A DNA stretch of 63,519 bases, the filler included, from Sphacelaria rigidula (lineage: Eukaryota), in NCBI GenBank assembly GCA_964200075.2. It is 5 parts of 5 records of this genome, joined end to end, with 100 filler letters (N's around TTAATTAATTAA, not from the genome) between each part and the next. Parts side by side here need not be neighbours in the genome. Positions count along the whole stretch, not along the records: positions 25,452 to 38,074 come from CAXNAA020003559.1; 4 more parts are not named here. One strand, 5' to 3'. The notes beneath the pieces are model-generated. The model saw nothing but the letters and a program-made list of their open reading frames with translations, was not told the origin of the DNA and made no database searches. Both the position numbers and the translations under genes were made by a program. Shown here one piece after another: positions 7,128-58,746 of this stretch (position 1 is the stretch's first letter; each line of letters begins with the position of its first letter).

Positions 7128-9290
7128 GACAATGCCACTGTCCATTTCCTAGTGTATTCAAGCGCCTTCTCTCTTTGTTTCTGCAACCCGTCTGGTGTTC
7201 CTGATATCCCCACGAAATTATCCGTGAACACCAATCCCGATACCGTACCTCCTCCCACCCTGACTCCTTGTTTCGCTCTTGTGATTGCTACTATCATGTC
7301 ATCAATGAAAATCTTGAATAAAGAAGGTAACAGCGTACATCCTTGGGCAACTCCTTGTAAAATATCAACATACTTCGATATTTCTCCATCTGGCATCGTA
7401 GCACTTCTCGCACATTCCGTCATCATTTCTTACCATTCTCTACATCTCCCCTCTAATCTCAATAGCCACATTTTCCCCACAGCCCATTTCTCCATACTGT
7501 GTCATAGGCCTCATGTTCGTCGAGAAAGAAACAATATATTGATCATCCCGCTTTCTTTCTACAGTACCTTCAAAAATCTTACCTAATGTGTACACAGGGC
7601 TCACGCAGCTACGGTTTGGTGTAAACCCTGCTTACCCCTCACTGATACTATTTTCCTTTCTTCAACATTGTTCTCACTCCCTCAATCAGAATCTTACATA
7701 CTGGTTTTCCTACGGTGCTCAGTAGCGTCATTCCTCCATATTTCCCTGGGTCAGCCTTGTCTTTTCTGTTGAAGATATTACTACTCCTTCTCCGCACCTC
7801 ATGGGTGTGTACTCGTTCCCCACACACAATTATACAGCATAACCATCACGGCGATCATTCCCTCTCCCTTGTTCTTAAGAAATTCGTTCACTATTTCGTC
7901 TGCCCCTGCTGCCTTCCTGTCCTTGAGTTTAGCTACACAATGCTTCACTTCCTCTTATATGAACTCTCCCCGCGATTCCTTTGAACCACCATTCTCCGGT
8001 TTTGATGCCTCTACGTTTGCCTCTACCCACGTGTTGGTTGCTTTATCGAATTCCGCGTCGAACCTCTTGTGAATTGTTGGTGTTCCTAGTTTTCGGCAAT
8101 GTTCGACTTGTACTCCTCTCTTCCCCTTGAGAGTGCCAACCATTTTACCGTTCAGTGCACTCAGTGTGGATATTTCTTTGGCAGCCTCTTCTGCCTGTTT
8201 GCCCCGTATCCCTTTTATCTCTATCCACATTTGCTTCATTCCGCCATCAAAGATTTCACTTTTGTTTTTTGAACTGCATCTTTCATTATCCCCTTGTATT
8301 CCTTCTCCACCATATTCTTTACTTATTTTCTATTATAAACAGCCGATCATCGAAATTGAGAATGGAGCTTTTAATTGGGGAGGAAAATCCGGAGGATGAA
8401 AATTTTCGTATTCAAACCAAATCTTCGAAATATGGTTTCATTCCTTCATCTACTGGTAGTTGTTGACAACTACTGCGCGCTATACAAATTTGAATTTCGA
8501 CAGCCGAAATGTTGGGGTTCTAGATGAAGAACCACTTTCGGGGAACTTCGGCGATCCGATCGGATCAACTTAGTTCCCCTAACTTTATTCTTCATCCAGG
8601 ACCCCAACTTTCCGGTTGTCAAAATCCCAATTTGTAGGGCGTGTACCAGTTGTCAATAGCTACCAGTGGGTGAAGGAATGAAACCATATTTCGAAGATTT
8701 GGTGTGGATACGAAGATTTGAATTTTCCGGGTTCTCATCCTCAACGAAAAGCTGTATCCTCAATTTCGGTGGGAGGAATAGCTATAGCATACTCCTCCCA
8801 CCCTACCGTAGTTGTGCTTGATGCATTAATCGCGTGGGCTGCTCCCCTTACCTTTACACCCTCTTACACTTCCTCATCCGACCATATTACTGCTCTGTTG
8901 CACACGATCAGTTTTTTCCGTATTGCTGTACTTGCTGTGGTCTTGACCGATTGCTCCCATCCTTTTATAACCTTCGCCATTGCCTGATCCCTTTCCGTTT
9001 CGGTATTAGCTACAGAATACCTACGCTTTCTAACAACTTGGGGAAATTTCACTGCATATTTGTTAATCTCTTGCTGGCAGTCTTGCTGTTTTTCGTTTGT
9101 TTCTAGTTTATTTATTCTCCGTTTGCACAGCTTCCCACCCCGCCTATTTTTTATAACTCTCGCCTGTAGGCCGCCCGTCCATATTAGGCAGTGATCCGTA
9201 GTTCCCACGTCCTCTGCGCATACATGCACTTCCGTTCCCTTACAACTTTGGGTGGGGGGCTGAATCCAACTATCTGTGCTGTCAGACATA
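7128..9290 (-). mobile_element. Degraded non-LTR retrotransposon (LINE) ORF2 fragment: end of APE endonuclease plus reverse transcriptase
   Basis: Minus-strand fragments DVGTTDHCLIW (APE C-terminal SDH-like motif) and QGVAQGCTLLPSLFKIFIDDM...GLVFTDNFVG...LQKQ...EYTRKW (RT QG..LSP.LF and degenerate F/YADD motifs). Multiple stops and frameshifts; interrupted at 8338-8771. Confidence 0.85.
8338..8771. mobile_element. Palindromic foldback MITE inserted into the LINE
   Basis: ~200-bp imperfect inverted arms meet at the perfect palindrome gatccgatcggatc (8553-8566). A terminal fragment of the same family lies at 12728-12795. Confidence 0.8.
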
Positions 9291-12627: not shown

Positions 12628-12727
12628 NNNNNNNNNNNNNNNNNNNNNNNNNNNNNNNNNNNNNNNNNNNNTTAATTAATTAANNNNNNNNNNNNNNNNN
12701 NNNNNNNNNNNNNNNNNNNNNNNNNNN
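12628..12727. other. Artificial scaffold spacer N44-TTAATTAATTAA-N44
   Basis: Identical 100-bp linker with stops in all six frames, present four times. Confidence 0.98.
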
Positions 12728-20489: not shown

Positions 20490-21582
20490 GTGTGTTATTT
20501 CTTTTTAGTAATATGGAGGCGGTGTCTTTGAAGATTAGGCTCCCCAACAGAACACCAGGCGTCTGATGATACTGAAAGTTGACGTATGTGTGGACTGAAG
20601 CCGCAGGTGGGTGTTGACGCAGCAGTTTCGGCGACCCAAGGCATTTCGTGCCCTGCGTGGCTTGAAAGGAGGATTATGCACNNNNNNNNNNCGAAAACAA
20701 GAACACTTTCTGATGACCATTCTAGAGGGTAACGATATGAAACCCGCGCGGAGGCAGGAGTAGATCTTGTCATCCTTGTTGTTTACATCGGCCCCCTGTT
20801 GGTCGAGGCTGACACCAAGGCGGGAAATAACCACCAGATAATGTTCTCCATATGTTAGAGGCAGATCCCCTTGAGTTTTACACGCCGTGCTGAGCAAGAC
20901 GCGGCCGCACAATGCAGCCAAGGAGAAGAGTGTCTTCTGACAAGGACCACTGCGGACCTGTTCGGGCAGGGGGCAGCGTCTCGTCCCTCACAGGGCCAGA
21001 CTTGGCGTGGCCGTTACCACGACCGTCTGAAAATGACAGGGGCAGTTCCTGTAGTTTTCTTCTGTCAGAATCAATCGGATATTCTTCGGGGGTGTGCTCC
21101 CACGTGGAGATATTTACCCTTGTCTGGCAAGCGGGTGGTCGCCCTTGTGCAGAGTTTTCACTTTGTTCCAGAATAGGACAGAGTGCGAGTTGCAATTTGA
21201 TTTTTTTTCACGGGTGGATCGCGGGTATTCTAACCCTGTCGAGGCGTGGCTCTCATCGTACAGTCAGCACTACAACAGTAATCGTTGTACTAGCACTAGG
21301 AACACACTGTGTCAACTTCGTCGGGTATTACCTTGGGCAAATGCATATCGTGCAATAAAGGCTTCCCCCTTTCGTAGTGATATGCACCCTTTCCCATCCG
21401 GCTGCCAAACGCGCGATGGCTGGTATCCGTGCTAATGTGGAGACCTCTCTTACAAGGACGTCTGCTCCTCTAGTCTCACCATATTTTAGGCCTTGTAGTA
21501 TGACCGTCTCCAATTGACACCACGGATGATGAATTATAATTTCAGTACAATGCCTCCATAATATTGAAAAGGAACAACACTG
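20490..21582 (+). mobile_element. Non-autonomous DNA transposon family C (~1.1 kb, ~30-bp TIR starting CAGTG)
   Basis: Collinear with 54410-55480 along its whole length. TIR consensus cagtgttgttccttttcaatattatggaggc. Contains a 10-N gap at 20682-20691. Confidence 0.85.
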
Positions 21583-25351: not shown

Positions 25352-25451
25352 NNNNNNNNNNNNNNNNNNNNNNNNNNNNNNNNNNNNNNNNNNNNTTAAT
25401 TAATTAANNNNNNNNNNNNNNNNNNNNNNNNNNNNNNNNNNNNNNNNNNNN
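25352..25451. other. Artificial scaffold spacer
   Basis: N44-TTAATTAATTAA-N44. Confidence 0.98.
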
Positions 25452-25560
25452 GGAGGGGTGTACACATTTGTTGCTGGCCTTTGTCGTTTGACCATTGACC
25501 ACGCATCTCTTTCGAGACGGAGCATGGGAGGAGCATAGGGGGGGGGCGGGGGGGGTAGAT
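25452..25560 (-). repeat. Poly(C)-tailed family A variant (A2)
   Basis: Minus strand: (C)n..ctccgtctcgaaagagatgcgtggtcaatggtc..gcaacaaatgtgtacacccc. Homologous to 43240-43312 and 63161-63243. Confidence 0.75.
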
Positions 25561-28500
25561 GGGATGGATGGTGGAGTGTATTTCGTTGTGCTTGTGTAGA
25601 TTCTAGAGTGTCTGTAGTGTTCTCCCAGACTAGATCCTTGGTGGGAGCGCAAGGGCGGGAATTCAAAGTCGGTAGAAGTGTAGAATCAGTTCTGATTCCG
25701 CGGTGGTGCAGGTCCACCGGTTTAAGTTGACAATCGCAAACTTCGTTTTGCTATTCTTCAACGTCTGTTTGGTCTATCGTCAGTTTTTGGGCCGAGTTCG
25801 GGGTCAAAGTACGAGGGTGTATGACTGGGAATGAATGTTCGGCACCTGCCGTGTTGCTTCGGGTGCGTGGGGGATACCCGTGGGGAGGTTGTAACGTGAA
25901 GATAATTGTGGTGAGCGGCAAATTTTTGGCGTGTAATGTATTCGCTGTGAGCAACGGACACCCTGTCTCTCTCCGCAGTCTGCTGTTTTTGCTGGTTCTG
26001 CAATCTAGTCGGCATGTCAGCTGAAGGTGGTAGGCAAAGGGTGGTGTGGTTTAGTGCAGACGGGGCTACGGGATAGAGATTAGGGACTCGTGTGAGAAGT
26101 GAGTGCCGTGTGAGTATTTGTTTATGGTTAACCTTCTTATTGTTGTTGTTTCCTGGTATGGTGGTAGCGACAAGTGAGTGCGGTGGTCTCTGGGTCTGAA
26201 CCACAGGTTTTAGGTGATGGTGATGATTCTATTGCTTACCCAACCACCCGAACGCCCGGTTTGGGGGTGCACTGTGGTGGTTTGTTCGAAGTGTATTGCA
26301 GGTACGAGGGCGGATCCTGAACGTTGTTCTTTAAATGGTGTCTTGAGAGTGTTATTGATGCGAGTGTGACGGGCCCCTTAGGATGTAAACGCCGGGTTGG
26401 GGTGCGGACTTTTTCCCCCATCCGTCTGGCATACCTTAATAGGCAAGATAATACTGAGTAACGAAAAGCTTGGAGTGATCGCGGAAAGTGATGAGGGCAG
26501 CCCGTAAACGGTGGTAGTACATGGTTTTGGTGACTCCGACAAGCTGTGGTGATAGTTCCCCGGCCCATCCAACTACCAAGTAAGACACACGGGCATGAGA
26601 ATACGGTCGTTTGTGATCGTGATATTAGAGACCAACTGATCGATTCTGTATGGGAATCTAGCTCGTGCGGAATGGAGAAATTGTGTTGAAACGTTGCTGG
26701 TTCGATTTATATGGACTGCTGTGCCGACTTTTGTCAAGCGTCGTTCTGCAGGAGCCACCAGTATCCGCACGAGAGATCGCAACCTCACAGCCAGTGGGTG
26801 AAGTGAACGTAGGGCGTTGGGTGTGTATCCGAAGAGTGCGATGCCGTCGGAATTTCGTTGAATATGTTCACAGGTATGTACATTGTGGTCCGAGACTTCG
26901 TTGGTGCTTTCGCGACGTGTCATCCTGGGTAAGTCAACAGCACCATCCTAACGCTCGATAACTCCGGGGGGGCGAGGACGAGCGACTGATAGATGTTTCA
27001 CGAGCAACTTAGATAGCGTAAACGTCGCGGACAAATTATATGTCGTGTGTTTTGTATGAGTTTGGTGGGAAATGGCGCAGCTGCCAAGGTTTCCCCCTGG
27101 TAAATGGGTTTCCAATTGAAGACTATTTCCAACGGGAGCTGGGGCATTCTGATATCCAGTGCGTTTATGAGTCAGAGTAGGCAGATGTGACATATCCATC
27201 GCGAGGTCAGTTTGAAGGATGATGAGGCGAGTGCAAGTGTAAGCTCTAGCTATCGTCTATATCGTGCGTTTTTTCGTCAACTTTCTCTCGCTTACCAACC
27301 CGGCAGGACGAATTGGGGATAGTGTGCAGAACAGATTGTTGGCATACGTAATACAAGCTTAGCGGGACAGCACACCAGGCACATCCACCCGGACGAGATG
27401 GGGAAGCGCATGCCAGTGGTGGATGGGATCATCCAGAAGGCTCGTGTGGGTCATTATTACTGTGTAGCTTGAAATATTGTGCTGACCGTCCTCCCCGTGC
27501 TTGCGACACCCGAAGTGGCACGAGAGACTGTTTCCAATCTACGCGTTCTCGACTGATGAGCACCATTCGTCGGGAGTCGACCCTGCCTGCGGTGTGTATG
27601 CCCTTACACCGAGCCGATATAGATGTGCGTTGGGGTGATCGTTAGCACACGATCGTGAGGACATTCTGTCCAGGTGTTGCCCTATGCGTAGCACCCACCA
27701 CGCCGCGGTTGAGTTGTGCGGCAGTAATAGTCTCCGATAAAACCAGAGGCTTGACGGCGTGTCCGTATTCATCTATATCTATGTTTGATGGGCAATACTT
27801 GGTGAATTTTGGTTTCTGTTGACAGGTAATCGGCGTGGGGATGGCATGTGTACACTGTAAGAGTGAACGTATGAGTTCATTGGAGGGTACCCGTTGTGAT
27901 TGCTCTGTTTTCGATGATGATATATACCTGCAACCTTCACCTAGTAGTAGTGTTCTTTGGCGGTAGCAAAAGGAAGCGAAAGTCAACGTCAGAATTGATG
28001 CAGATTTTGTCCTGTCGGTCGTTGTTCCCTATGTCTTGTCGTGGAACGCGGAACTCTAACTCTCCCCTTCTCTCTGTTCTTCTCTCTCCGCTCTTTGATT
28101 ATCTGCCCTTTATATTTGCGCGTGGTGAATAAGTACCTTTGTCAACCATCTTCATGTTTAGGCTCGAGAGTTCCCGCCTAATTATGTAGCTTCCGGAACG
28201 TTTAGTCGAAACCTGCCCCCACATCCTTGTTACTTGTAGTGCCTGTCATCTGAAGCTCTTGCGGGGATCTGTCAGGGTATTTCTGTGCTACTGTCATGAA
28301 GTTAGGAGGCGTTTATGATCAAATTTATCATCAAATCTGGGATTTTATAGTTGCGGGTATGATCAAGCTTGACTAGGCCCCATGTGAGACTGATTGAAGG
28401 TACAGGCATGGCTTTTTGTGAGCCTTCCCGGCTCACTCGCTAAGTGGAGCTGACCGCTAAGCAATTGCTATAGCCGGAGAGCAACGTGAGAGAGCATCGA

Positions 28501-29225
28501 ACGGAGCGATAACGAATACGAGTGAAGAAGAGTCTTTCGTATCAAGTGGATATAGCTTACTGCGTGAAGCTATTGAGGTGTGAACTGATTTGGACACGAC
28601 CGTAACCTGATTGTGAGCCTTGACCCGCGTGCACACAGAGGTGCATGCTTTACAACACCATAACACTACCCTGCTGACAGTGGATTTTCGAAAATGGGGT
28701 TGAGAAACAGAATGAGGTTCAACTCAAAAGCCNNNNNNNNNNAAAAGCCGTGCTTTCCCTGACCTAAATTCATGAGAAATGACTTTCATACGGACGATCT
28801 CATCCTTCCCGACCTCCCAATTTTTTGTCCAGAGGCCGCTCTCGAAATCTCTGACCTGAGCGAATCGGAAAAGTGGGCTAGGCTCCTCCCGGTGGGGTGA
28901 TACAAAGTGTCCAAGACGCGTGGTGGCGATTTCCCCTGTTTGGGGGTCAAAAACCTTGTCAAATGTCCTAAAAGTGGAAAATACGAGCCAAACAAAATAC
29001 GAACCGGAAGAAACGGCCTTATATGACGGCTCGTTTGAGCTTTATATCGGTGATCAGGCCATGCGAGAGAGCACCAAACGAGGATCAATCAACCTGTAAA
29101 CAAGTAAGAATAAGTTTATTTTCTGATCAATAGTCGTGTGCACCTTCTGAGTAAATAGAAAGGAAGAGGAATAATTCCAGTGTGTAGGATACGCATTCAA
29201 TGTAACGTGGGTTAACGGATATGGC

Positions 29226-30480
29226 ATCCACCGTGTCATGTGTGAGATCACCTGCTCATATTTTTCTCATCTGCCAGAGTCAGATAAACGAAGATGTCCC
29301 CGAACGAGTGCTGGTGCTGGACAACGATTGGCACGTGTAAAACTCTGTGCCTCGAGTATTTTCACCTTCCAAGGAGTCATCCTACGATAGGGGGGGGGGG
29401 TATTTTGAGCCATTTATCGCACGAAATTCCAGGTCAAATCGTCGTTGAAAGCAGCAACGGTTGCTCGAATAAGCTTGTTATAGATACGTGACACTCATTC
29501 ATGCCGATTTACATCGTTTCGAACCAAATACAAGCGCACCGCGAGTGTGGCAGGTCGTCTGACACAATTATAAGCCTCTTTTTTCGTGCAACTAAATACC
29601 CCCCCCCCTATCGTAGGATGACTCCAAGGTCTGAGTAAAGATGATGTTCCCCACCAAGTGCCCATGGGTAACGACGAGTATCATGTGCAAGGTCTCCTAC
29701 TCATTTTTTTTCATTTGCCGGGGTGCAAAAATGATGGTACCGGATAAGTGCTGGTGATGGATAACGAGTATCTTGTGTGATCATTGGATCATACCGGTTC
29801 TCTGCCAGGGTCGTACCACAAGCGATCTCTCCGAGCAACTGATGGTGGTAGACATCCACCGTGTCATGTGTGAGATCACCGGCCGATTTTTTTTCATCCG
29901 CCAGAGTTAGATAAACAAAGATATCCCCGAACGAGTGCTGGTGCTAGACAACGATTGGCACGTGTAAACTCTGTGCCTAGAATATTTTCACCTTTCAAGG
30001 TCTGAGTAAAGATGATGTTCCCGACGAAGTGCCCACGGTTAACGGCGAGTATCATGTGTAAGATATCTTGCTCTTTTTAAATCATTTGCCAGGGTGCAGA
30101 AATGATGGTCCCGGACAAGTGCTGGTGATGGGGAATGAGTATCTTGTGTGATCACTGGATCATACCGGTTCATCTGCCAGGGTCGTACCACAAGCGATCT
30201 CTCCGAGCAACTGATGGTAGTGAACAACGGGTGTCATATGTAGTGTGACTAGGTCACATTCTCTCATTTTTTTGGGTCGAAGTAGACACGGCGTTCCCCA
30301 ACGAGTGCCGATGATGTACGACAACTACCAGATGAAAAATCCTCACGTGATATATTTTCATCTTCCAGGGTCGAATGGCAGACGGTGCTCCCGAAGGACA
30401 GCCGGTGCTCCACGACGATTATCATGTGATGACCGGGTACAATATCAGTGGTCATCTTTCTTTCATCTGCCAGGTGCTCA
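29226..30480. repeat. Tandem repeat: ~372-bp unit built from ~93-bp diverged monomers
   Basis: catccaccgtgtcatgtgtgagatcacc at 29226 and 29853; ggtctgagtaaagatgatgttccc at 29628 and 29999. Monomer motif ttttcatctgccagggtc recurs about every 90 bp. Confidence 0.8.
29374..29624. mobile_element. Sola-like MITE (251 bp) with 4-bp TSD
   Basis: TIR gagtcatcctacgatag(G)n tattt / aaata(C)n tatcgtaggatgactc. TSD CAAG on both sides. The neighbouring repeat unit has the empty site (tttcaaggtctg, ~29994-30005). Confidence 0.85.
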
Positions 30481-30775
30481 CGGGATATGACGGTTATACA
30501 GGAATGCTGATGGGGGATCAAGATCGAAATCTGTAAAACGCAGGGAAATGGGCATGTTCAGAGACATGTTGGAGTGTAACGACAAATCTGAAAGTACTTC
30601 CAAAAGCGTACATCAAACCGAGAACAACAACCGCGACGTCCACCCAATCACAGGCACGCCACGACCACCCACACTACTTTCCACCCACAGCAAGCGCACT
30701 CAATGGCATCACCGCCCCTGCCCGAAGAATACTCCCTCCCAGAGGCGACCCCCCCCCCTGCCCCTGCAACGCGCC

Positions 30776-33700
30776 TTACGAAGCCTTCCTCTGCTTAAGT
30801 ACCGCACGCAAGGAGACTACACTAACCCTCCCAAAGCGGTCAGACACTCGCATCAAGGGGAAGTTGCAAAAGCACCGTCCGCGGATCCAGATGTCAAATG
30901 CACAGACCGTGGCAGCCCCTCCCTTCCTGTGGTGCATGCTATTTCGTACGATCCTCATCAAGATTTCCCTGTTGATGGCCTCGTTGCGTACCTCGTAAAT
31001 GACTTGTAGAGAGTAAGTCAAGACCTCTAGCGTCATGTTGGATAGCGTATGCACGTGCAAAGTCAGGAAGGAATTGTCTTGCTCGTGGGGATCAAGTTTT
31101 ACGCCGCTAATTTCCGAGCATTGAGACAACCCAGCGTACTTTCGCCTGAAGTCAGCGTCGTGGTTCTTCTCGTGCGGACCATCGAGCCCGACGTACATTC
31201 CGCTCGAGCAACTCGTGTGGGGGTGCGGGCGACGCCGACCATTGGAGGTGTGCTTGTGGCCATCGTTGGCCGTATCGTGGAATTTTATGCCGTAACCTGC
31301 GACCTTGAAGTCCTGTCCGGCGCTGTCATGCGGAAGAACGTTCGAGGCCAGCGCTATTTGTAGGGACTTGACCGAGGCAACATTTTGGCTGAAGCCGATA
31401 CCACTGCGTACGGCACGCTCTGGAATATGGCGAGGGACGAGCACGGACGAGTAGGTTACGGTCAAACCCGCAGGGATAACTGACCGTTAGTGCGTTTCGC
31501 GCTTTTCGATGCACGATTGTGAAGCAATGTAGTATACGGACTACCTCGTGTGGGCTACACCGGGAAACTGGGGTACATTGTCTCACACATGGGGAAATTG
31601 CAGCGTGCGCGTGTGGCAGCACACATGGACAATCTGTGACCATTGGACCTTCTCCCACGAGCACGCGCGACGGACTGACTTACCGGCTCTTATCCGTTCT
31701 TCCGGGCCAGAAGGGAGCAGGCCTTCCACAACAAACCGGACCTTGGCCTGCGCGACGCGTAGTAATATAAAGCTTGCGGTTGGGAATCTGGACGGACAGC
31801 AGCTGAGTGAGTAGCTCATGGTGAGAAAAAGAACGACTCGAGCTAACCAGTCAGCGCTCGTGGTGAAAATAATACAGGGCTCCAGTACACGAGTGAAGTC
31901 CTCGTGGTCCAGGGAATGAATAGCTCGAGTAGTCGACTCATTCTCGTGGTTCAAAAAATGAATGACCCTAGAAAACGAGAGTTTGCTCCTGGTTACAAAA
32001 ATTAATAGCTCGACCACTCAAGTCGTTGTTCGTCGGGAAAAAAATTCATGACTCCAGCACTCGAGTCGTTGCTCGTGGTGAAAAAAATAAGCGACGTGAG
32101 CAAACGAGCCATGCTCGTTGTTTTTCGAAATAAATCACTCAAGCGTACGAGTCACGCTCGGTGTTTAAAAAAACACGGACGAAAGCATTCGTTTCGAGGG
32201 GTGGTCATTCCTCCGACGTATGGTATCTAAAACAAAACATGCACGATTTCGGCCGTCAAATTTAGTTATTTTGAACTCAGCACCTTCGTTACTCGTCCCA
32301 TCCTACCGTGGCATGTAATGATGGGATCGTCTCTGGCCACAGCTCCCTCACCTCTGCGTACGAATGCAGCCCGTCTATTACCCTGACGAACGGTCGACAC
32401 GTTGCCTGCTCCACTACCCAGTTGGTCATTTCTCCAAGCAACGGTAGAGAGGGTGGGATACCTTCCCGAGATCCCGATATCACAACAAGTAGCTCTCGCT
32501 CAACCTCCATAGCCTCTGACACGCGAATGGCTTGTGGTCTATCGTCTCCCACCTGCGACCATCCGCCCCCACTCTCAGAAGACGGTGGGGATGGCGTTAC
32601 ATCTGCAGCGAGCAGCTCCCATCCTTGAATCCCCACGGATGCGACTTCGATGCCCTGAGCCGTTACCGCTGAATGCCAATGGTACGTGAAAACGAGCACC
32701 TCGTAAAGAGATAAGATACGCTGGCCTTGCACGCGCAGCGATGAAATGCTGCGAGTAGCCGCCAGGGAAGTCGCCCTGCCAGCGGACGAACTCAAGTTGG
32801 CGTGGTAGGACAGGAGGTCCTCCACACTGAGTTGGCTCTGCTGGTCGTGAGGTTGCGACCTCGCTTTCAGCTCGTACACGTCGTGAATCGCGTTCCTCTC
32901 CTCGCAACCAGAAGGGTTGGGCGGCACGTTCGATGCGGGGAGACTGACACTTTGACCGTGGTTTCCCAAATGCGCCAGCTCAGGGAGGTAGATACGACCT
33001 CTCTCTACTCCCTCCGCCGCCGCTTCGATGCGTGACCTTTTCGCCCCGACCATCCCTGCGTCTCCTCCCCCGCCCCGTTTTGTCCTGGCCCTCCTCCCCG
33101 CAGGCCGCGCCGCCATCGGCGCTCCATGCGTAGGCGCAGTCACCCCCACAAAGTCCACGGCCGCCCCGTCTGCCCTTGCCTCAACCGCCGCTGCCTCTCC
33201 TTCGGGTCTTTGTCTCGACACGGCAACCTCCACGGCCGCTATTTCCGCCACGCCCCCGTTTACCGGCGCCGCCCCGTCTCGTGTCCCCGGCGCTGCCGCG
33301 TTCGACACAGTAGACCTTGTGGTAACCCCGGCCGCCGCGTCGCCTGTGCCGTACTGTGTCGTGGATCCTCCACTCTCGCACCCACAAGTGCCGGCGTAAG
33401 CGGCGCCGCTCGCTCGGTTGCCGCAATCGTCACCCCAGCGTCCCCCCCCGTCATCTCTCCATCTTTAGACCCTTCACCGAATCTTCCGCCGTGTGCGGCC
33501 GCGCCTTCTGTCATGGGGAGGCGAGGCAAGATACCTTTGTTGTGTAGCAACCCTGGCGCCATTTCCTCCAGTTGTTTTACGAGCCCGGATGCGAAGTCAT
33601 ACACGGCAAGGATCGGCTGCCACTGCGCGTGTGTGGTGGGCGAGACGGGGACTCACAGGTATAGTGGTACATACAGCGTGGTGAACATTTTTGGACGTCA

Positions 33701-35027
33701 CCGCGGTCGACGCGCAAGCAAGATCGCATGAAAATGCGCTAATTCATTCGCACCTCTGCTTCTGTGGCTAATGTGCATCAAACACTCCAGTGCCAACAGA
33801 CTGATCATCGTCTGTCGCAACCGGCAGACCCGACAGTACCCCCCGCGCGTGCTGCATGCGTCAGTCACGATTTTCCCCAGAGGGTAAGCACATAAGCGGA
33901 AGGCAAAAAAGCACGCAATCGGAAGGCGAAGCCACCAATCGTAATTGTACCGTAAAATGGGACCAGTTCGTCGTCTCGACCGACGTGCACTGGCATCCTC
34001 ACTCATTTACTCCCCGTCAGTGAGAGAGGGGGAACTATCCCCGCACTCTAGATACCTTCAATCCGAGAAGAGCATCTGCTGGGTTCCTCTCACTCTCCTG
34101 CGTCAGCAGCAGCTCCATGGTCACCAGAACACCCCACGGTGCGAATCCGGCGAATGTTCCCGCGGTCACGGCCGAGGCCTCCCTACCGAGAAACAACGTC
34201 GAGCAGTCGTCGAAGTTGGGGTTTTCCTTCGAAAAGTGAAACGTATGCAGGGCCTTGAAGAGCGACTTCAATGCTGCCACCGTCCCGACCCTACCGCCCC
34301 CCTCCCGGAGGCCCGAGCGCGTACTTTAAGACGGGGGAGACAGGCGTGAATCAGCATAGTGAAGAGTGACAGGGCCCCATGAACTAGAACAAATGGCGAC
34401 AACAACCCGCAGTTGAGGCCTCGCGAAATCCCTTCTACGTTCCGTGGGAGGTGAATGGGCGAACCCAAACGATGTTTGTTTATTTGCGGCGTACTGCACT
34501 CACTTTGAGACTCCCGTCGAGAAGCACTTCCTGTGCAGAGCTTGCAGCGTCTTCCTGTCCATGTTTTCGACAGCACCTATCCCTCAGTTATCCTTCGAGT
34601 GCTTCACCAACGCCTGCCCATTCCCCGTCTTGTGGACATCCTCTGCGGCCGTCTTGCCCCATGCCGACTCGTGGAGAACCTCCGATATGCGGCTGCGAGG
34701 CCCTATCCAGGTTGGCGAGTTGCCGGTATTGGCCCCGTCCACCATGACAAACGCCACTGTAAGGCCTCCGAAGAAGATCGGTGACACCAACGTCAGCTTG
34801 AAGAGGATTAGGCGAGGTCTGTGTCGATGTCCTGCTCTGGCCGCGACGCATACAGGTGGGTGCTCGTGACGAAATCGGTTCCGACTTTCATGCAGGCGTC
34901 GAAGGTTAGAATATCGGGAAAGTCGCCCCACTCCCAGCACCGGTACTCCATGGGAAAATCGATCAGCGCCAAGAATACTAGGAAGGCGTTCTTCAGCGTA
35001 TTGAGCAAGTTGTTGCCGCGGACAAGG
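30776..35027 (-). pseudogene. Spliced KDZ/Zisupton-type (HMGXB3-like) DNA transposase, decayed
   Basis: Ordered motifs on the minus strand: AFLVFLALIDFPMEYRCWEWGDFPDILTFD; SAP-like ENMDRKTLQALHRKC; AGTFAGFAPWGVLVTMELLLTQESERNPADALLGLK|WQPILAVYDFASGL; PHPHTSCSSGMYVGLDGPHEKNH...HEQDNSFL...LSNMT...RNE. Phase-compatible GT-AG introns at 34324-34503, 33623-34055 and probably 31788-32292, 31568-31683. Contains stops and frameshifts. Confidence 0.8.
31811..32165. repeat. Repeat-rich insertion (ctcgtggt/acgactcgag motifs) in a predicted transposase intron
   Basis: Multiple short direct and inverted motifs in an AT-rich block interrupting coding-like sequence. Confidence 0.5.
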
Positions 35028-35786
35028 CTAGCACGTAGAATAGAGAAACAAGACGGGCGAAGGTGGCACCGGCGGTAGCGACACGCACGGCAGAAAAGAA
35101 GCAGCATTTCTTTCGATTACATGTCCCGGTTTTGTGTTGTTGGTACTACATGGACTTAAAACCCCGTTCATCGAGGGGGTGGTTTTGAACGGGCATGGTC
35201 CAAAAACACATTGTTTAGGCTGTAGCGCTACGAGTGTATAGAAAAACAACAAATAGTCTATTTGATTTTTCGCCATAACAGCCGAATCTTTGGGTTGACC
35301 AAAAAAATAAGAGAGTGAAAAACTGTACCTATACACTCGTAGGACCCCGTACGACCGCTTAGTCGGTAACTCGTTCAAATTGGCGATATGGAATACTTTC
35401 TTCTATTAATTTGTCTCGGGTAGTCATCTCTCTACATTCCCAGATTCTGGGATCGAAGAACTCTGTACTACTTTCCCTACATTCCCAAAACCTGGGATCG
35501 AACGGAAACCTTGCGGAGTCATGGTGACCTAATAACCTGAAAAAGTAACGGACGACTCTATAAGATGAGGTTGTTCACCAAAATGAGGTTCAGCCCAAAC
35601 ACTGCTTTCCCTACACTTTCAGTGACTGTGCCCGATGATGTTTTCTCCCGCCTCATGCCACTCCATCGTGTTCATACTTTTTCAGTGCCCTTTCCCGACT
35701 CCGCGACCTTACAGCGCTGAGCGAAGCCCTCATTTCCCCCTCGTAACACCCCCCCTCCCCCATTACAGGGTAACTTATAGCGTTCA

Positions 35787-36553
35787 TTGCGCGTTTGTGG
35801 CGGACGTGGGCTTGAAGCGTGCAACTTCTAACTACTTCGTTGTAGTATGGAACCGTCTTTTTGGGTGAATTTTACGTCAAGGCAAGAAAACCTGCATGAG
35901 GTTTTCGATTTTTCGCACCAAACTTTGTGCATGTGTTCTTTCGACTATCCCGGGACGCATCATTTTAGTATTTTCTTTTGGGACACTATGTACCGGCTCC
36001 CGGGTCTTCATACTGGGACCCCCGGAAGCCGTTAGAGAACGGAGAAACTTTGAAATATCGTCAAGGATATATTTTTGCATTTGGAGCATCAATATCTACG
36101 GGACTGCCAAGTTTGAGAGCGATCGGAGCTTTTCTACAACAGATATAAGGGGCACCATCATGATGCTCCCTGGGTCTTTCGTGCGTATCATTGGTGGAAA
36201 TTAGGCGACGCAAACACCGGACATCACCGTAACATCAAGGTTTCGGGTGAAATTCGACCCCCGATTCCCGAGCCAATGACCGTTACGACGATTTGAAGCA
36301 TGTGGACATTAGGTGAAAATTGAGCTTGGATTTCGTAATTTTGATCTCAGAACAATTTGACGAGCGCTGATTGGTCAATATACATTTTCGCCCCTAGTAC
36401 TACCACCATGGTCTTACACACAAATCCGGCTAAGCCACGCTCTTCAGCTGTCCATAGCGGTCAGTATGATATCATGTGTGCGACTATTGAGTAGGAATTG
36501 CGAAATGCGTTTGCTGATGACACAATTTTGGGTGATAAGCGTGAACCAGCCTG
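35787..36553 (+). mobile_element. Tc1/mariner-type MITE family D, right-end fragment
   Basis: Collinear with 57983-58746; ends gcgtgaaccagcctg. Confidence 0.8.
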
Positions 36554-37610
36554 CATTATTTTTCTGTCCGTCGAAAATAGCTTGTTGCGATGGTGGGTAC
36601 AATACTCCAGCAAGGTAGTTCAATACTTGACCCTTTTGGGACTGGGCCTCCAGAATGACCAACGAGGCTGATTAGGAATGACGTGTCCTGCATATACATG
36701 AAACAGTGGCTTCATGTTGCTAAAAATCAACGAATGTATGTAACGGCAGGGTTTGAATCCGTCGAGACAATTGTACAGAACGTGCACCTCGATGACCCAG
36801 CTGTTGCCGAAATGAAAAACTCCGGTGCTCCGCCAGTCACCAATCGCAGCGGTCCGGCACCCACACTCCGTTCGGTCTACAGTGACTGCCTCCAGCTGGA
36901 GACCGCCAACGCCCTTAAAAAGGCAAGGTATGGGGAGGACGAAAAGGGAAGGATGGTGTTCGATTTTTACCGAATACGCCAGCAATTTCGAACACACTTC
37001 CTCTCGGGAGCATAGAAAAATTGGGTTTGAGCGAGGAGGATAAAGGGCATAGTTTTCCACCTCAGGAGAAAAATAGGTACACTCGCCGTTCCAAATACTG
37101 CTGTGCTGCCATATCATTGCCAGTTGTGCAGTCCATATTCATTGCAACCTTGCAAACTGGGCTGGAGGATTCTTGAGCCTGAAACTGAAACAATTATTCG
37201 CGAAAAATGATAATAATCAAAACTTATGTCAGACAAAAATAAATACAATAAATAGTAACCAGTTATTGTGTTAAAAAAGAAAAGAGGCAACTACAGGCTG
37301 GTCCAGCCTACAAACGGGTTTGAGCTCTCAAAGCAATATGCCAGCGACACAAACGAGTCGGGCTGTGACCCGCGTATCACATTCATCGTCTAACTAAGGG
37401 GAAGGTGCCCACCTGCTCAAAAGTCTGGGTCAATTTCTTTCGCTGATTTAACCTGTCTAGTAATTCCTACACCGTACGGATATACTAAAGTCTATATATG
37501 ATACCCCGGACGATGTGTACGGCGGATGATGACGATTTTTAGTGTGGACATTCCCTGGGGCACGGGGAAACGATATACTTCCTCGGTTCCATAAGTAATG
37601 GTACCAAATT

Positions 37611-38074
37611 TGTATGGGCCCTTAACGATGTCCGATCTTTTTTTTTGTATGAACTCTACGGTGTTTTTTGGGTCAAGAAAATGTGTTTGAAATTTGCAGC
37701 TCGTGCTTGAACCATGCCGCCGAACGGCTGCAAAATAAGTAGTCGACCCCAAAATGGCCGTTTTTTGCCCCTCTCCAAGGAGGAAAAAAGGGTCGAAATT
37801 TTTTTTCTTGATTTTTTTTAATCGCGTGGGACTTCCTGGCAGCCCCAGTAAAGGCAGCGGCGATTAAAAAAGTTCAAGAAAAAAAATCGACACTTTTTTT
37901 CCCCTCGGAAAGGGGCAAAAAACGGCCATTTTGGAGCCGACTACATATTTTGCAGCCGTTCGGCGGCATGGTTCAAGCACGAGCTGCAAAATTTCAACAC
38001 ATTTTCTTGACCCAAAAAACACCGTAGAGTTCATTGAAAAAAAAAACGATCGGACATCGTTAAGGGCCCGCACA
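37611..38074. mobile_element. Palindromic foldback MITE (~215-bp arms, ~35-bp loop)
   Basis: gggcccttaacgatgtccgatc...ttaatcgc mirrors gcgattaa...gatcggacatcgttaagggccc. Confidence 0.85.
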
Positions 38075-38174
38075 NNNNNNNNNNNNNNNNNNNNNNNNNN
38101 NNNNNNNNNNNNNNNNNNTTAATTAATTAANNNNNNNNNNNNNNNNNNNNNNNNNNNNNNNNNNNNNNNNNNNN
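38075..38174. other. Artificial scaffold spacer
   Basis: N44-TTAATTAATTAA-N44. Confidence 0.98.
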
Positions 38175-40893: not shown

Positions 40894-41745
40894 CAGGCTG
40901 GTTCACGCGTACCATCCATAATTGTCTCATCAGCGGTTGCCTTCCGCGATACCTACCCGATAGTTGCATGCATGGTATCATATTGACGGCAATGAGCAAA
41001 TGAAGAGGGTGACATAGCCGGGTTTTTGTTCAAGGCCGTGGCGGTGGCGCAAAGGGCGAAAAGGTACCTCGACCAATCAGCCCCCTTCAAGTTGTGTTGG
41101 AAATTCAAACATGAGTTTTCACCCCAATTTCTACTCAATCTCCACATGCTTCAAATCGTATTAACCGCCATCAGCTCGGGAATTTAACGGGAAAAAACGG
41201 TGTTAAAAACGGTTACAGTACCATGGATCGGATTACACCCGAAACCGTGGTATTTCCGTGATGCGGGGTTTTGGCGTCGTCAGATTTCCACTGATGATGG
41301 GCACCAAAGATCCAAAAGCCACCTTACAATTTCCCTGAAATCTGTTGTAAAGAAGCCCTGGTCGCCCACAAACTTGGCAGTTCTATAAGTATTGGTGCTC
41401 CAAATGGAAAGTGTATTATGGAAGAATATTTCGTTTTTCTCCGTTTTTGACCGGTTTCAGGGGGTCCCAGCGTGAAGACCCCCGGAAGCTGGTACAGAAA
41501 ATCTCACAATAAAGGATAATTAAAAAATGCGTCCGTGGATGGTCGAAGGAACATACGTACCAAGTTCGGTTGCGGAACTCGGAAACCTGATGCAGTTTTT
41601 CTCGCATAAACGTTGAACATACTGGAAACAAATGTTTTTGAGACTAAAATCAAGTAATTTGGAGTGTGAACGTTTCAAGCTCACTTCATCGCACAAAGCG
41701 CGAATCTCCACGCCAATTTTCGGAGTTAGACTCTGAAACTTTGCA
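40894..41745 (-). mobile_element. Tc1/mariner-type MITE family D fragment
   Basis: TA|caggctggttcacg end, then the reverse complement of the 57950-58746 body. Confidence 0.75.
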
Positions 41746-50797: not shown

Positions 50798-50897
50798 NNN
50801 NNNNNNNNNNNNNNNNNNNNNNNNNNNNNNNNNNNNNNNNNTTAATTAATTAANNNNNNNNNNNNNNNNNNNNNNNNNNNNNNNNNNNNNNNNNNNN
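50798..50897. other. Artificial scaffold spacer
   Basis: N44-TTAATTAATTAA-N44. Confidence 0.98.
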
Positions 50898-54409: not shown

Positions 54410-55480
54410 CAGTGTTATTCCTTTTCAAAAATATGGAGGCGGTATTTTTGAAGATAAGGCGCCCCAACACAGTACACCAGGCGTCTGATGATACTGAAAC
54501 TTGACGTATGTGTGGACTAGAGCCGCGGGTAGTTGTTGACGCAGCAGTCTCGGCTACCAAATGCGTTTTGTGCGCTGTGTGGCTTGAAAGGATGACTATG
54601 CACGATGCTGCAGTGATTCCACAAACAAGAACACTTTCTGATCACAGTTCTAGAGAGTAACGATATGAAATCCGCGCGGAGACAGGAGTAGATCTGGCCA
54701 TCCTTGTTGTTTACATCGCCCCCCTGTTGGTCGAGGCTGGCACCAAGGCCGGAAATAACCACTGGTTGAGGTTCTCCATATGTTTTATACGCCGTGCCGA
54801 GCAAGACGCGGCCGCACAACGCAGCCAAGGAGAGGAGTATCTTCTGTCAAGGACCACTGTGGACCTGCTCGGGCAGGGGGCAACGTCTCCTCCCTCAAAG
54901 TGCCAGACCTAGCGTGGGCGTTACCACGACGGTCTGAAAATGACAGGGGCAGTTGCTGTAGTTTTCTATCAAAATCAATCAGATATTCTTCCGTAGTATG
55001 CTCCCACGTGAAGATATTGACCCTTCTCTGGCAGGCGCGTGATCACCCTTGTGTAGAATTTTCACTTGGTTCCAGAGTAGGACAGAGTGCGAGCTGCAAC
55101 TTTTTTTTTTTTCCACGAATGGATCGCGGGTATTCTATCCCTTTCGAGGCGTGGCTCGCATCGTACAGTCAGTTCTACAGTACTCATTGTAGTGGCACTA
55201 GGAACACACAGTGTCAACTTCCTCGGGTATTACATTGCGCGGATTCATATCGTGCAATAAACGCTTTCTACATTTGTTGTGATATGCATCCTTTCCCAGC
55301 CGGCTTTCAAACGCGCGAAAGCTGGTCTGTAGCGCCAGATATCTGTGCTGATGTGAAGACCTCTCTGCAAAGAACGCCCGCGATTCAAAACTGGAGTATG
55401 ACCGTCTCCAATTGACACCGCGGATAATGAATTATAATTTCAGTACAATGCCTCCATAATATTGAAAAGGAACAACACTA
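54410..55480 (+). mobile_element. Non-autonomous DNA transposon family C
   Basis: Homologous to 20490-21582, with TIRs at both ends; TGGC on both flanks. Confidence 0.85.
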
Positions 55481-57262: not shown

Positions 57263-58746
57263 CCGGCTGGTTCACGCTTATCGCCCAAAAACATTCAGCG
57301 GCAAAACCTCACGCCATTTTAAGGAGTTATACCCTGAAATTTTGCACGAATGTTCTATGAGTCATCCGGCAACTGAGGAGGAACGGTTGTTTTTTTTTTT
57401 TTAACTTTTTTCACATTTTTCGGGGGTCCCAGTTTTTGGGGGGAAACCTCGACCCAATCGGACCCCCGTGAAAAACGGTAACAAAAAAATAAATAAGTAA
57501 CCTCGTTCTTCCAGAGTTGCGTAATGTCCCAAAGCACAGTTGTGCAAAATTTCAGGGTCTTAACTCCTTAAAACGGCGTGAGATTTTTGGCCTTCGTGCG
57601 ATGAAGTTTGCCGTACCGCGGTGAAACCGCAAACTACTTGATTTTAGTACCAAAACGGCGTTTTTGGACCTTCTTTGACGTGACTATGGAAATTCAAGCA
57701 CCAGTTGATCGAGTTCCGCGACCAAAATTTGTGAAGCCCATCCTCGGGTTTTGCGGAGGCAGATAGTTCGTGAAAAAATGAAGAAAAAATATCGTAGTGT
57801 CGTTTCACCAGGGTCTCAGAACGGAGTCTACTTCGAAAAACGACTTCGATCCCGTCGGACCCCCGAAAAACGGTGAAAAAGTCGAGAATTAAAGAAAACA
57901 TCGTCCCTAGAAAGTTGAGTAAATATATATAGCATATTTTATGCGAAGTTTCAGGATCTAACTCCTAATGATAGCTTCAAAGTTTGCGCGTTTGTGGAGG
58001 ACGTGGGCTTGAAACGCGCAACTACGAACTACTTGGGTTTAATATGGAAACGTCTTTTGGGGTGAATTTGACGTCAAGGCAAGAAAAATTGTATGAGGTT
58101 TTCGACTTTCTCCACCAAACTTTGTACATGTGTTCCTTGGACTCTTTCGGGATGCATCATTTCATTATTATTTCGTTAGAGCATTCTGTACCGCCTTGCG
58201 GGGGTCTTCATGCTGGGACCCCCGGAAGCCGGTAGAGAACGTAGAAAACATGAAATATTGTCGAGAATACAATTTTTCCATTTTGATCACCAATACCTAC
58301 GGAACTGCCGAGTCTGAGGGCGACCTGAGCTTTTCTATAACAGATATAGGGGACACCGTCACGAGGCTTCCTGGGTCTTTCGTGTTTATCATTCGTGGAA
58401 ATTAGACGACGTCGACCCCCGTAGTAACCGTTTTAAAAATATGATTTTCTCGATAGATTCCCGTGTCGATGACCATCACTACGATTTGAAGTATGTAGAG
58501 ATTGGGTGAAAATTGGGCTTGGTATTCGTAATTTCGATCTCGGAACAGTTTGAAGGGCGCTAATTGGCTGAGACACATTGTCGTCCATAGCGCCACCGCT
58601 ACGGCCCTAGACAAAAATCCGGCTATGCCACCCTCTTTATCTTTTCATTGCGGTCAGTATGATACCAAAGATGCGACTATGGGGTGCGTATTGCGGAAGA
58701 CATTTGCTAATGACACAACTTTGAGTGATCACCGTGAACCAGCCTG
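57263..58746 (+). mobile_element. Tc1/mariner-type non-autonomous element family D, complete (~1.48 kb)
   Basis: TA|ccggctggttcacg ... cgtgaaccagcctg|TA. Internal diverged sub-repeats; no transposase ORF. Confidence 0.85.

What the first reader, a model, noticed from the sequence alone, without database searches (positions are those of the whole stretch)
30776..35027. Intron-containing KDZ/Zisupton (HMGXB3-like) transposase hidden across several unrelated-looking ORFs
Seen: splicing 34056|33622 (GT..AG, phase 0) gives LLGLK|WQPILAVYDFASGL, and splicing 34504|34323 (phase 2) also keeps frame. Knowledge, from recall: Zisupton/HMGXB3 proteins have the motif order F.AL.D...C..CG..P...D, a SAP-like segment, GG...CP.G...ES.RD..D.LL...P...VYDFA.GL, HP.TG....Y...D.FHE.N and EQ.F......L.NM. 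All are present here in order. Inference: this is a diverged algal KDZ lineage with at least 4-5 spliceosomal introns, some conserved Cys positions substituted (FAPWG, CWEWG, DGPH), and stops/frameshifts in this copy. KDZ elements are best known from fish and fungi, so a spliced stramenopile member could be a poorly described family or a decayed domesticated gene.
Basis: partly seen in the sequence, partly recalled or inferred. Interest (0 to 1): 0.75.

Follow-up and report, generated by a model that had tools for sequence, protein, structure and literature searches.

The report
Decayed spliced transposon gene, brown alga
This is a transcribed but broken, intron-containing copy of a repeated mobile-element gene of a brown alga, probably a KDZ/Zisupton-type transposase; such elements were described in the brown alga Ectocarpus in 2025, so it is fairly ordinary.

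Summary
The minus-strand ORF pieces at 30776-35027 belong to one real, spliced, transcribed gene. RNA-like contigs of three runs carry GT..AG joints that the DNA-like run lacks. Five introns are supported. The donor at 34504 is right, but the acceptor in use is 34182, not 34323. This copy is broken in four places: a 1-nt frame break at about 34809, an in-frame TGA at 34584-34586, a frame change inside exon 3, and a 2-nt acceptor shift at 31417. A paralogue lacks the first two lesions, and a deletion derivative also exists as DNA.

The last exon belongs to a family of 85 database proteins. All seven named clusters are from brown algae, and one Sphacelaria rigidula record equals this locus's spliced product.

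KDZ/Zisupton homology is not shown. Single exons, 88 family members and read-through frames gave no Pfam KDZ, CxC, CACTA or Plavaka hit. No long homologue and no fold match were found. The support for KDZ is motif order plus the published Ectocarpus picture of giant KDZ elements with spliced, often pseudogenised genes (PMC12477816).

Verdict: a decayed transposon gene, a candidate KDZ member, of low novelty.

The parts
36788..37138 (-). Upstream exon E0. The 3' end is fixed at 36788 and the 5' end is not determined. The ORF 36623-37138 is open in the frame that runs into exon 1.
   Evidence: Joint 36788|35027 (CT..AC on +, which is GT..AG on -) in X3, X5 and X7 and not in X1. Donor context GAG|gtgcac. 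RNA-like depth is 7.5-8.8 at 36801-37000.
35028..36787 (-). Intron 0 (1760 nt). It carries nested very high-copy repeats at 35787-36553 and about 36554-36753.
   Evidence: joint 'skips 1760'. X1 summed depth is 31,000-84,000 at 35706-36800. The window holds two further copies of the 35787-36553 repeat.
34504..35027 (-). Exon 1. It has a 1-nt frame break at about 34808-34810 and an in-frame TGA at 34584-34586.
   Evidence: It is contiguous in RNA-like contigs covering 34503-34906 and 34877-35027. Paralogue contigs have one extra base at 34808/34809 and A>C at 34586, which turns TGA into GGA (tables 3 and 4).
34183..34503 (-). Intron 1 (321 nt).
   Evidence: Contig lengths and near-zero RNA-like depth in bin 34173-34391. 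Splice contexts AAA|gtgagt and ggtag|GGAGGCC.
34056..34182 (-). Exon 2 (127 nt): ...EASAVTAGTFAGFAPWGVLVTMELLLTQESERNPADALLGLK.
   Evidence: It is in frame with exon 1 (the 35027 frame) and with exon 3.
33623..34055 (-). Intron 2 (433 nt), partly retained in the RNA-like runs.
   Evidence: GT..AG, phase 0. Contig ends at 33623/33624. An intron-only contig covers 33595-34085 at roughly a third to a half of the exon contigs' depth.
32352..33622 (-). Exon 3 (1271 nt). It starts with WQPILAVYDFASGL (33581-33622). The frame changes somewhere in 33263-33464, where a G8 run lies at 33442-33449. The second frame stays open to the donor.
   Evidence: RNA-like contigs are contiguous over 32922-33624 with 0 differences, and over 32351-32509.
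31748..32351 (-). Intron 3 (604 nt), with a 43-nt tandem repeat at 31997-32088.
   Evidence: Joint 31746|32351 'CT..AC (cut +1)' in X3, X5 and X7 and not in X1. TRF result.
31684..31747 (-). Exon 4 (64 nt): AKVRFVVEGLLPSGPEERIRA.
   Evidence: X5 contig 17 spans exons 3, 4 and 5. The same junctions appear in database proteins P0003 and P0001.
31420..31683 (-). Intron 4, with two acceptors 2 nt apart. An exon start at 31419 keeps the frame. An exon start at 31417 shifts the frame and runs into a stop at about 31326.
   Evidence: joint 31417|31684 in X5 and X7, and joint 31414|31684 with 5 replaced letters (a paralogue using 31419) in X3, X5 and X7. P0003 uses 31419.
30776..31419 (-). Exon 5 coding part, with the stop at 30776-30778. 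This is the conserved family module: DGPHEKNH at 31160-31183, DPHEQDN at 31073-31093 and GRCFC at 30866-30880. This copy departs from the family majority at several conserved sites, for example C to F at residue 113 and P to L at residue 101.
   Evidence: phmmer gave 85 hits. In other copies 31185 A>G gives P.
29225..30432 (.). Block of 94-nt and about 371-nt direct repeats starting about 350 nt downstream of the stop. It may be subterminal repeats of the element, but this is not shown.
   Evidence: These repeats have no partner elsewhere in the window.

Best explanation
The locus is a pseudogenised but still transcribed and spliced copy of the main gene of a multi-copy DNA transposon of a brown alga (the record matches Sphacelaria rigidula). 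Most probably that gene is the DDE transposase of a KDZ/Zisupton-type 'giant' cut-and-paste element like those catalogued in Ectocarpus.

An intact copy would work as follows (inferred). The spliced mRNA, of at least six exons, would encode a transposase of more than 900 aa. Its RNase-H-like core would be spread over exon 1 (first acidic block, ...TFDAC...), exons 2-3 (second block, ...VYDFASGL) and exon 5 (H-x3-H-x3-C, then a ...PHEQ... block, then a C-terminal Cys cluster). The protein would bind subterminal repeats, cut the element out and insert it elsewhere.

Shown here: transcription; five GT..AG introns; extra copies, including an internal-deletion derivative; four ORF lesions in this copy; and conservation of the last exon across brown algae.

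Inferred here: that the product is a transposase, that it is of KDZ type, and which residues are catalytic.

This copy cannot make a full-length protein. At best it would be moved in trans.
For: Splicing and transcription:
- CT..AC joints 36788|35027, 31746|32351 (cut +1) and 31417|31684 occur in the RNA-like runs X3, X5 and X7 and in 0 contigs of the DNA-like run X1, whose contigs run straight across the splice sites.
- Database protein P0003 (NCBI CAM9374918.1, Sphacelaria rigidula, on a 12,623-nt contig) is the spliced product of the exon 3 end, exon 4 and exon 5 of this locus.

Multi-copy, transposon-like behaviour:
- Paralogue contigs differ by 10-14 letters in 245-287 nt.
- A form lacking 32953-34731 (TG..TG ends, so not an intron) is present in DNA (X1) as well as in X5 and X7.
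- X1 summed depth is 877-1532 over 30450-31763 and 31983-32420, and 57-133 over 32640-35267. Exact-match contigs have depth 16-25. The tool warns that summed depth is not a copy number.
- A high-copy repeat is nested in intron 0.

Decay:
- The paralogue restores the frame at 34808/9 and reads GGA where this copy has TGA.
- This copy differs from the family majority at conserved columns.

Family: 85 hits at E<=1e-3, with 7 of 30 looked-up clusters named, all brown algae.

Literature (PMC12477816; passages and supplementary file 1 read). Ectocarpus KDZ comprises 8 families and 6403 copies, of 2-30 kb (the gene-bearing families 9-30 kb). They have 8-bp TSDs, termini rich in tandem repeats, spliced transposase genes (KDZ-1_Ec32 'best blastp Zisupton_XM'), fixed nested TE insertions and frequent pseudogenisation. 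The anatomy here matches each of these as far as it can be seen.

This is recalled, not tested.
Against: Pfam found nothing relevant:
- No KDZ (PF18758), CxC, Plavaka or CACTA hit in 11 locus ORFs at E<=1.
- None in 34 plus 54 family members.
- None in two read-through frames of the gene at E<=10.
- None in all six read-through frames of the 12.6-kb stretch at E<=1.

Other points against:
- All 85 phmmer hits are 56-357 aa. No full-length transposase, HMGXB3 or fish Zisupton is among them.
- Word-indexed searches for longer relatives found none (weak evidence).
- The AlphaFold model of the last exon has no fold match.
- No terminal repeats or target-site duplication could be defined, because only one copy on a 12.6-kb stretch is in hand.
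- The putative catalytic E of the PHEQ block is kept in only 23 of 34 aligned members.
- Ectocarpus giant elements also carry non-transposase genes.
Confidence: 0.55

Rival explanations
1. It is a non-transposase gene that rides in a transposon, or an otherwise amplified brown-alga-specific gene family of unknown function. The motif resemblance to KDZ would then be coincidental.
For: No profile, sequence or fold link to any transposase was found. All relatives are short 'unnamed protein product' records or unnamed ORFs. [quoted passage not shown]
Against: Several motifs fall in the order expected of a DDE core, with H-x3-H-x3-C shortly before a conserved acidic block. Within the 12.6-kb stretch no other candidate transposase ORF was found by Pfam. 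The gene is long (at least six exons and more than 900 codons), as expected of KDZ transposases.
Confidence: 0.22
2. It is the transposase of a different DDE group, the CMCT clade (EnSpm/CACTA, Plavaka and relatives). These elements are also giant, spliced and abundant in Ectocarpus.
For: An H(3)H motif (HEKNH; H conserved in 22/34 and 27/34 members) lies shortly before a conserved E. This is one of the two CMCT signatures named in PMC12730594 (passages read). Plavaka and EnSpm families are numerous in Ectocarpus.
Against: No C(2)C lies between the VYDFA block and the H(3)H in exons 3-5 of this copy (and by eye for exon 5). No Pfam Transposase_21, Plavaka or DUF4218 hit was found.
Confidence: 0.15
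3. It is a domesticated, HMGXB3-like host gene derived from a Zisupton transposase.
For: It is transcribed and spliced, and gene models are annotated on it (P0003).
Against: The ORF is broken at four places. Several diverged copies and a deletion derivative exist. No HMG-box or any other Pfam domain was found. Differences between copies are mostly non-synonymous in the 29 listed sites, of which 8 are synonymous (this is a partial list, only 40 of 331 differences were printed).
Confidence: 0.03

Closest known systems
KDZ-1_Ec32 to KDZ-5_Ec32, giant KDZ DNA transposons of Ectocarpus (PMC12477816, Genome Biol 2025)
   Same: The host group is the same (brown algae). Both have a spliced, expressed main gene and frequent pseudogenisation or frameshifts. 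Both have unrelated TEs nested inside, tandem repeats near the gene's end of the element, and many copies including deletion derivatives.
   Different: No sequence comparison with these elements was possible, because their sequences are not in the tools. Termini, the 8-bp TSD and full length are not seen here. The Pfam KDZ model does not hit this locus or its family.
Zisupton transposons of fish, and Zisupton-3_cRei of Chlamydomonas (PMC9977147, passage read)
   Same: These are large cut-and-paste elements, and they are present in algae.
   Different: Similarity is not detectable by phmmer with the last exon.
HMGXB3 (vertebrate gene derived from Zisupton)
   Same: Only the recalled motif order.
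   Different: HMGXB3 is a single-copy intact host gene with an HMG box. This locus is multi-copy, broken and has no HMG box.
CMCT clade transposases (EnSpm/CACTA, Plavaka; PMC12730594)
   Same: H(3)H before the last acidic block, and giant spliced elements in brown algae.
   Different: No C(2)C lies between the second and third acidic blocks, and no Pfam hit was found. The TSD is unknown.

Membership tests
KDZ (Kyakuja-Dileera-Zisupton) DNA transposons | Transposase with significant sequence or profile similarity to the KDZ catalytic domain (Pfam PF18758, or Repbase Zisupton/KDZ proteins) | tested here: not met
   0 Pfam hits for 11 locus ORFs (E<=1), 88 family members, two read-through frames of the gene (E<=10) and six read-through frames of the stretch. 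Caveat: the fully spliced, frame-corrected protein and Repbase proteins could not be tested.
KDZ (Kyakuja-Dileera-Zisupton) DNA transposons | CxC-type cysteine cluster N-terminal to the catalytic core | tested here: inconclusive
   No Pfam CxC hit. A degenerate C-x2-W-G..P stretch (34913-34939) precedes the first acidic block, and the upstream exon has ECGC. The 5' end of the gene is not defined.
KDZ (Kyakuja-Dileera-Zisupton) DNA transposons | 8-bp (7-bp in Kyakuja) target-site duplication at defined termini | not testable with these tools
   Only one copy is held, on a 12,623-nt stretch bounded by N blocks. No genome is held. No partner for the downstream repeats was found.
KDZ (Kyakuja-Dileera-Zisupton) DNA transposons | Brown-algal KDZ anatomy: giant element, spliced transposase gene, nested TEs, tandem repeats in termini | tested here: inconclusive
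   A spliced gene with five introns and a nested high-copy repeat are met. A repeat block at 29225-30432 is present, but it is not shown to be a terminus. Element size is unknown.
KDZ (Kyakuja-Dileera-Zisupton) DNA transposons | DDE catalytic triad in an RNase-H-like fold | tested here: inconclusive
   Candidate blocks are TFDAC, VYDFAS and PHEQ/PHE-x-NH. Only the last exon could be folded, and its model (pLDDT 65, C-terminal 100 residues confident) has no fold match.
CMCT clade (EnSpm/CACTA, Plavaka, Transib...) | [quoted passage not shown] | tested here: not met
   H(3)H is present (HEKNH). No C-x2-C is present in exon 3 frames or in exon 5 before it (and by eye). No Pfam Transposase_21 or Plavaka hit. 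This copy is decayed, so the absence carries only moderate weight.
HMGXB3-like domesticated gene | Single-copy intact ORF with HMG box | tested here: not met
   Broken ORF and extra copies. No HMG_box hit.

The most novel reading that the evidence does not exclude
The conserved last-exon module (H-x3-H-x3-C, a PHEQ block, then a C-terminal H/Cys cluster ending in GRCFC) would be the catalytic-E plus zinc module of a brown-alga-restricted DDE transposase lineage. Every current Pfam transposase model (KDZ, CxC, Plavaka, CACTA) misses it. It would then be either a very deep KDZ branch or an unnamed superfamily sitting between KDZ and the CMCT clade.
Probability: 0.12. Interest if true: 0.5.

Novelty: new member of a known kind. 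Interest (0 to 1): 0.22.

Why it matters
The main value is for annotation. The locus shows that a repeated gene of brown-algal genomes is invisible to Pfam. Repeat-masked annotations cut it into short 'unnamed protein product' models of 56-357 aa. The exon structure given here, together with the 85-member last-exon family, could seed a profile to label such fragments across brown-algal genomes.

If the KDZ link is confirmed, it extends the Ectocarpus finding of giant spliced KDZ elements to a Sphacelariales-type genome. That would be an expected result, not a surprise.

Tried and rejected
- Whole-genome search: no genome is held for this window.
- Word-indexed protein searches for longer relatives found nothing. 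These used the last exon (813 candidates), its family profile (7999 candidates) and the VYDFA region of exon 3 (3 candidates). The tool calls this weak evidence.
- ESM Atlas: no usable hit for the window ORF. The best score for P0004 residues 98-294 was 0.85, to SPRY/Neuralized clusters, which is treated as noise.
- Loci with relatives: none in JGI metagenome contigs (110 pattern matches, 0 confirmed), IMG/VR (28, 0) or GTDB genomes (46, 0). The first attempt, with alignment A1, had no conserved stretch.
- PDB by profile: 4 matches at E 0.011-0.81, all designed repeats or paxillin, judged not meaningful.
- Fold searches of the last-exon model: Foldseek best E 1.1; VIA-align wide best Z 3.4 with none at 5 or above. 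These are partial-domain searches and so uninformative.
- RNA runs: no holder is on record as RNA. X3, X5 and X7 are labelled 'RNA? (a guess)'. I treat them as RNA-like only because they carry GT..AG joints that X1 lacks.
- Rfam and tRNA scans of the window: nothing.
- Earlier notes of this scan: nothing on this genome or sequence. The word search returned only unrelated Naegleria and red-alga transposons.
- Papers not held: Bohne 2012 and Iyer 2014. The defining KDZ/Zisupton motifs could therefore not be read.
- The supplement of PMC12730594 holds only DNA consensus sequences (cut) and TET domains, with no transposase alignment.
- Searches for print on brown-algal KDZ: 'Zisupton'+'Ectocarpus' gave 6 papers; 'KDZ'+'transposase'+'algae' gave 6 papers; 'Sphacelaria rigidula'+'transposable elements' gave 4 papers, listings only, none about this family.
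- Considered and rejected: that the 1779-nt skip 32952|34732 is an intron. It has TG..TG ends and is present in the DNA run, so it is a deletion derivative.
Full report
WHAT IS THERE

The window is eukaryotic. It is not one continuous piece of genome. N blocks at 12628-12727, 25352-25451, 38075-38174 and 50798-50897 cut it into five stretches of about 12.62 kb. The finding lies in stretch 25452-38074.

The window holds no second copy of the gene, and no whole genome is held for it.

TRANSCRIPTION AND SPLICING

Eight public runs from three studies hold the stretch. I laid four of them on 30450-37000.

X1 behaves as DNA. Its contigs run straight through the splice sites (for example 35024-35737, 33807-34165 and 34263-34514).

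X3, X5 and X7 are labelled only 'RNA? (a guess)'. They carry joints with CT..AC ends, which are GT..AG on the minus strand, and X1 lacks these joints:
- 36788|35027
- 31746|32351 (cut +1, so 32352|31747)
- 31417|31684
- a variant, 31414|31684, with five replaced letters; this is a paralogue using the acceptor 2 nt upstream, with the exon starting at 31419

Two more introns are inferred, because they were not among the 15 of 57 joints printed.

The first is 34504|34182. The X3 and X5 contigs of 530 and 524 nt equal 34906/34900..34504 plus 34182..34056. RNA-like depth in bin 34173-34391 is 0.3-0.6, against 7-15 in the exons.

The second is 34056|33622. Exon contigs stop at 33623/33624. A separate contig at roughly a third to a half of the exon contigs' depth covers exactly 33595-34085, which is the intron plus 30-nt overlaps.

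All ten splice sites show GT and AG.

The database gives independent support. Protein P0003 (NCBI CAM9374918.1, Sphacelaria rigidula, partial, on a contig of 12,623 nt, the length of this stretch) reads MTNWVVEQATC...HSYAE|AKVRF...IRA|ERAVRSGIGF.... That is exon 3 end, exon 4 and exon 5 joined at 31419. P0001 spans the exon 4 to exon 5 joint as well.

It would also keep the frame, since it lies 141 nt upstream of the real one.

THIS COPY IS BROKEN AND HAS SIBLINGS

In the spliced RNA the frame is interrupted four times.

1. At about 34809 the frame carrying ...TFDACMKV...DIDTDLA hits TAA, and the sequence continues in another frame. Paralogue contigs carry one extra base exactly there (34808/34809), which joins the two frames (table 4).
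2. TGA at 34584-34586 reads GGA in the paralogue (34586 A>C).
3. Within exon 3 the frame that starts with WQPILAVYDFASGL ends at 33260. The frame that runs into exons 4-5 opens at 33464. A G8 run lies in the overlap. RNA-like contigs identical to the window cover this part, so the break is real in this copy.
4. The acceptor at 31417, used by this copy's transcripts in X5 and X7, shifts the frame into a stop at about 31326. Only 31419 keeps it.

Other copies exist:
- Contigs with 10-14 differences per 245-287 nt.
- A form that lacks 32953-34731. It has TG..TG ends and is present in X1 as well as in X5 and X7, so it is a DNA deletion derivative and not an intron.

X1 summed depth is 877-1532 over the 3' 2 kb (30450-31763 and 31983-32420) and 57-133 over 32640-35267. 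The exact-match contigs have depth 16-25. The tool warns that summed depth is not a copy number, so I take it only as a hint. It suggests that many copies keep the 3' part and few keep the 5' part, as with internal-deletion derivatives of DNA transposons.

Intron 0 holds unrelated repeats of very high copy number (X1 depth 31,000-84,000). Two more copies of one of them are in the window.

Of the 29 printed differences between copies that fall in exon frames, 8 are synonymous. This is a partial list, drawn from 40 of 331 printed differences. There is no sign of strong constraint.

RELATIVES

phmmer with the last-exon ORF against 1.84 billion representatives gave 85 proteins at E<=1e-3, 46 at <=1e-10 and 5 at <=1e-30. 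All are 56-357 aa long.

Of 30 clusters looked up, 7 carry a name. All seven are brown algae: 3 Sphacelaria rigidula, 3 Ectocarpus and 1 Laminaria digitata, each an 'unnamed protein product'.

The family consensus (34 aligned sequences) keeps these features:
- ...GPDGPHE-x-NH-x3-C... (H 22/34, E 27/34, H 27/34, C 27/34)
- G-x3-C
- ...NPHEQ... (H 27/33, E 23/34)
- M, INR and H
- a C-terminal cluster, C...W..GRCFC..P....D..G

The window copy departs from the majority at several of these columns: P101L, C113F and others. At 31185 the other copies read the majority P.

IS IT KDZ/ZISUPTON?

No tool result says so.

Pfam found no KDZ, CxC, Plavaka, CACTA or HMG-box hit in any of the following:
- 11 ORFs of the locus at E<=1
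- 34 plus 54 family members
- two single-frame read-throughs of the gene with X at stops at E<=10, each holding three or four exons in order
- all six read-through frames of the stretch

The other searches were also blank:
- No long relative was found.
- No relative was found in metagenome, viral or prokaryote contigs.
- No PDB relative was found by profile.
- The AlphaFold model of the last exon (mean pLDDT 65, last 100 residues confident) matches no solved fold.

A joined sequence cannot be handed to the tools, and the two founding papers are not held.

Three things speak for KDZ:
Both are recalled, so this is a lead and not a test.
- The absence of the C(2)C that CMCT transposases carry between the second and third acidic residues (PMC12730594, passages read).
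- The close fit to the published anatomy of brown-algal KDZ elements.

That published anatomy comes from PMC12477816 (passages and supplementary file 1 read). Ectocarpus has 8 KDZ families with 6403 copies, making up 1.8% of the genome. The elements are 2-30 kb long (the gene-bearing families 9-30 kb) and have 8-bp TSDs. Their termini are 'complex', with tandem repeats. Their transposase genes are spliced (KDZ-1_Ec32 'best blastp Zisupton_XM'). They carry fixed nested TE insertions and frequent frameshifts or pseudogenisation.

The same paper warns that such giants also carry non-transposase genes. That keeps the accessory-gene rival alive.

VERDICT

It is unproven as to KDZ, and outdated as to novelty.

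My odds are:
- about 0.85 that this is a decaying gene of a multi-copy DNA transposon
- about 0.55 that it is a KDZ-type transposase
- 0.22 that it is an accessory or unknown family
- 0.15 that it is a CMCT-type transposase
- 0.03 that it is a domesticated gene

Interest is low.

Noticed in passing
window 12628-12727, 25352-25451, 38075-38174, 50798-50897: The window is five stretches of about 12.62 kb joined by blocks of 44 N, 12 bases and 44 N, so features on different sides of a block are not genomic neighbours. Stretch 25452-38074 is 12,623 nt, the same as the contig length recorded for P0003. There are also 10-N gaps at 20682-20691 and 28733-28742.
   Followed up: partly
window 35787-36553 (also 57984-58746 direct, 40894-41602 inverted): A repeat of about 770 bp inside intron 0 has enormous summed depth in the DNA-like run (31,000-84,000, against 16-25 for exact single contigs) and is also abundant in the RNA-like runs. 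The three copies in the window are 73-79% alike. A second very high-copy piece follows at about 36554-36753. There is no Pfam, Rfam or tRNA signal.
   Followed up: partly
window 29375-29623: A 249-bp MITE-like insertion with 27-33-nt terminal inverted repeats (AGTCATCCTACGATAGGGG... and its complement). It is flanked by a duplicated CCAAGG at 29369-29374 and 29624-29629. The uninterrupted sister repeat unit at about 29990-30000 shows the empty site.
   Followed up: partly
window 29225-30432: A block of direct repeats with units of 94 nt and about 371 nt (88-93% between the best pairs), just downstream of the gene. The period is not a multiple of 3. It may be subterminal repeats of the element.
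   Followed up: partly
window 7031-7429 (-): An ORF with a sub-threshold reverse-transcriptase match (RVT_1, E 0.00035, 20.8 bits against a cut-off of 29.6), probably a retroelement relic on another stretch.
   Followed up: no
window 37638-38045: A 180-nt inverted repeat (88% complementary, 48 nt apart) near the end of the stretch, upstream of the gene. It is hairpin or MITE-like.
   Followed up: no
window 20547-21581 and 54469-55479: About 1 kb shared between two different stretches at 83-97% identity. This is another dispersed repeat.
   Followed up: no
window 31211, 31324 (minus-strand acceptors): Further joints from the exon 4 donor to 31211 (X5, X7) and to 31324 (X3, X7), each with 1-2 extra letters. 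They may be alternative acceptors or transcripts of other copies (tables 5 and 5c).
   Followed up: no
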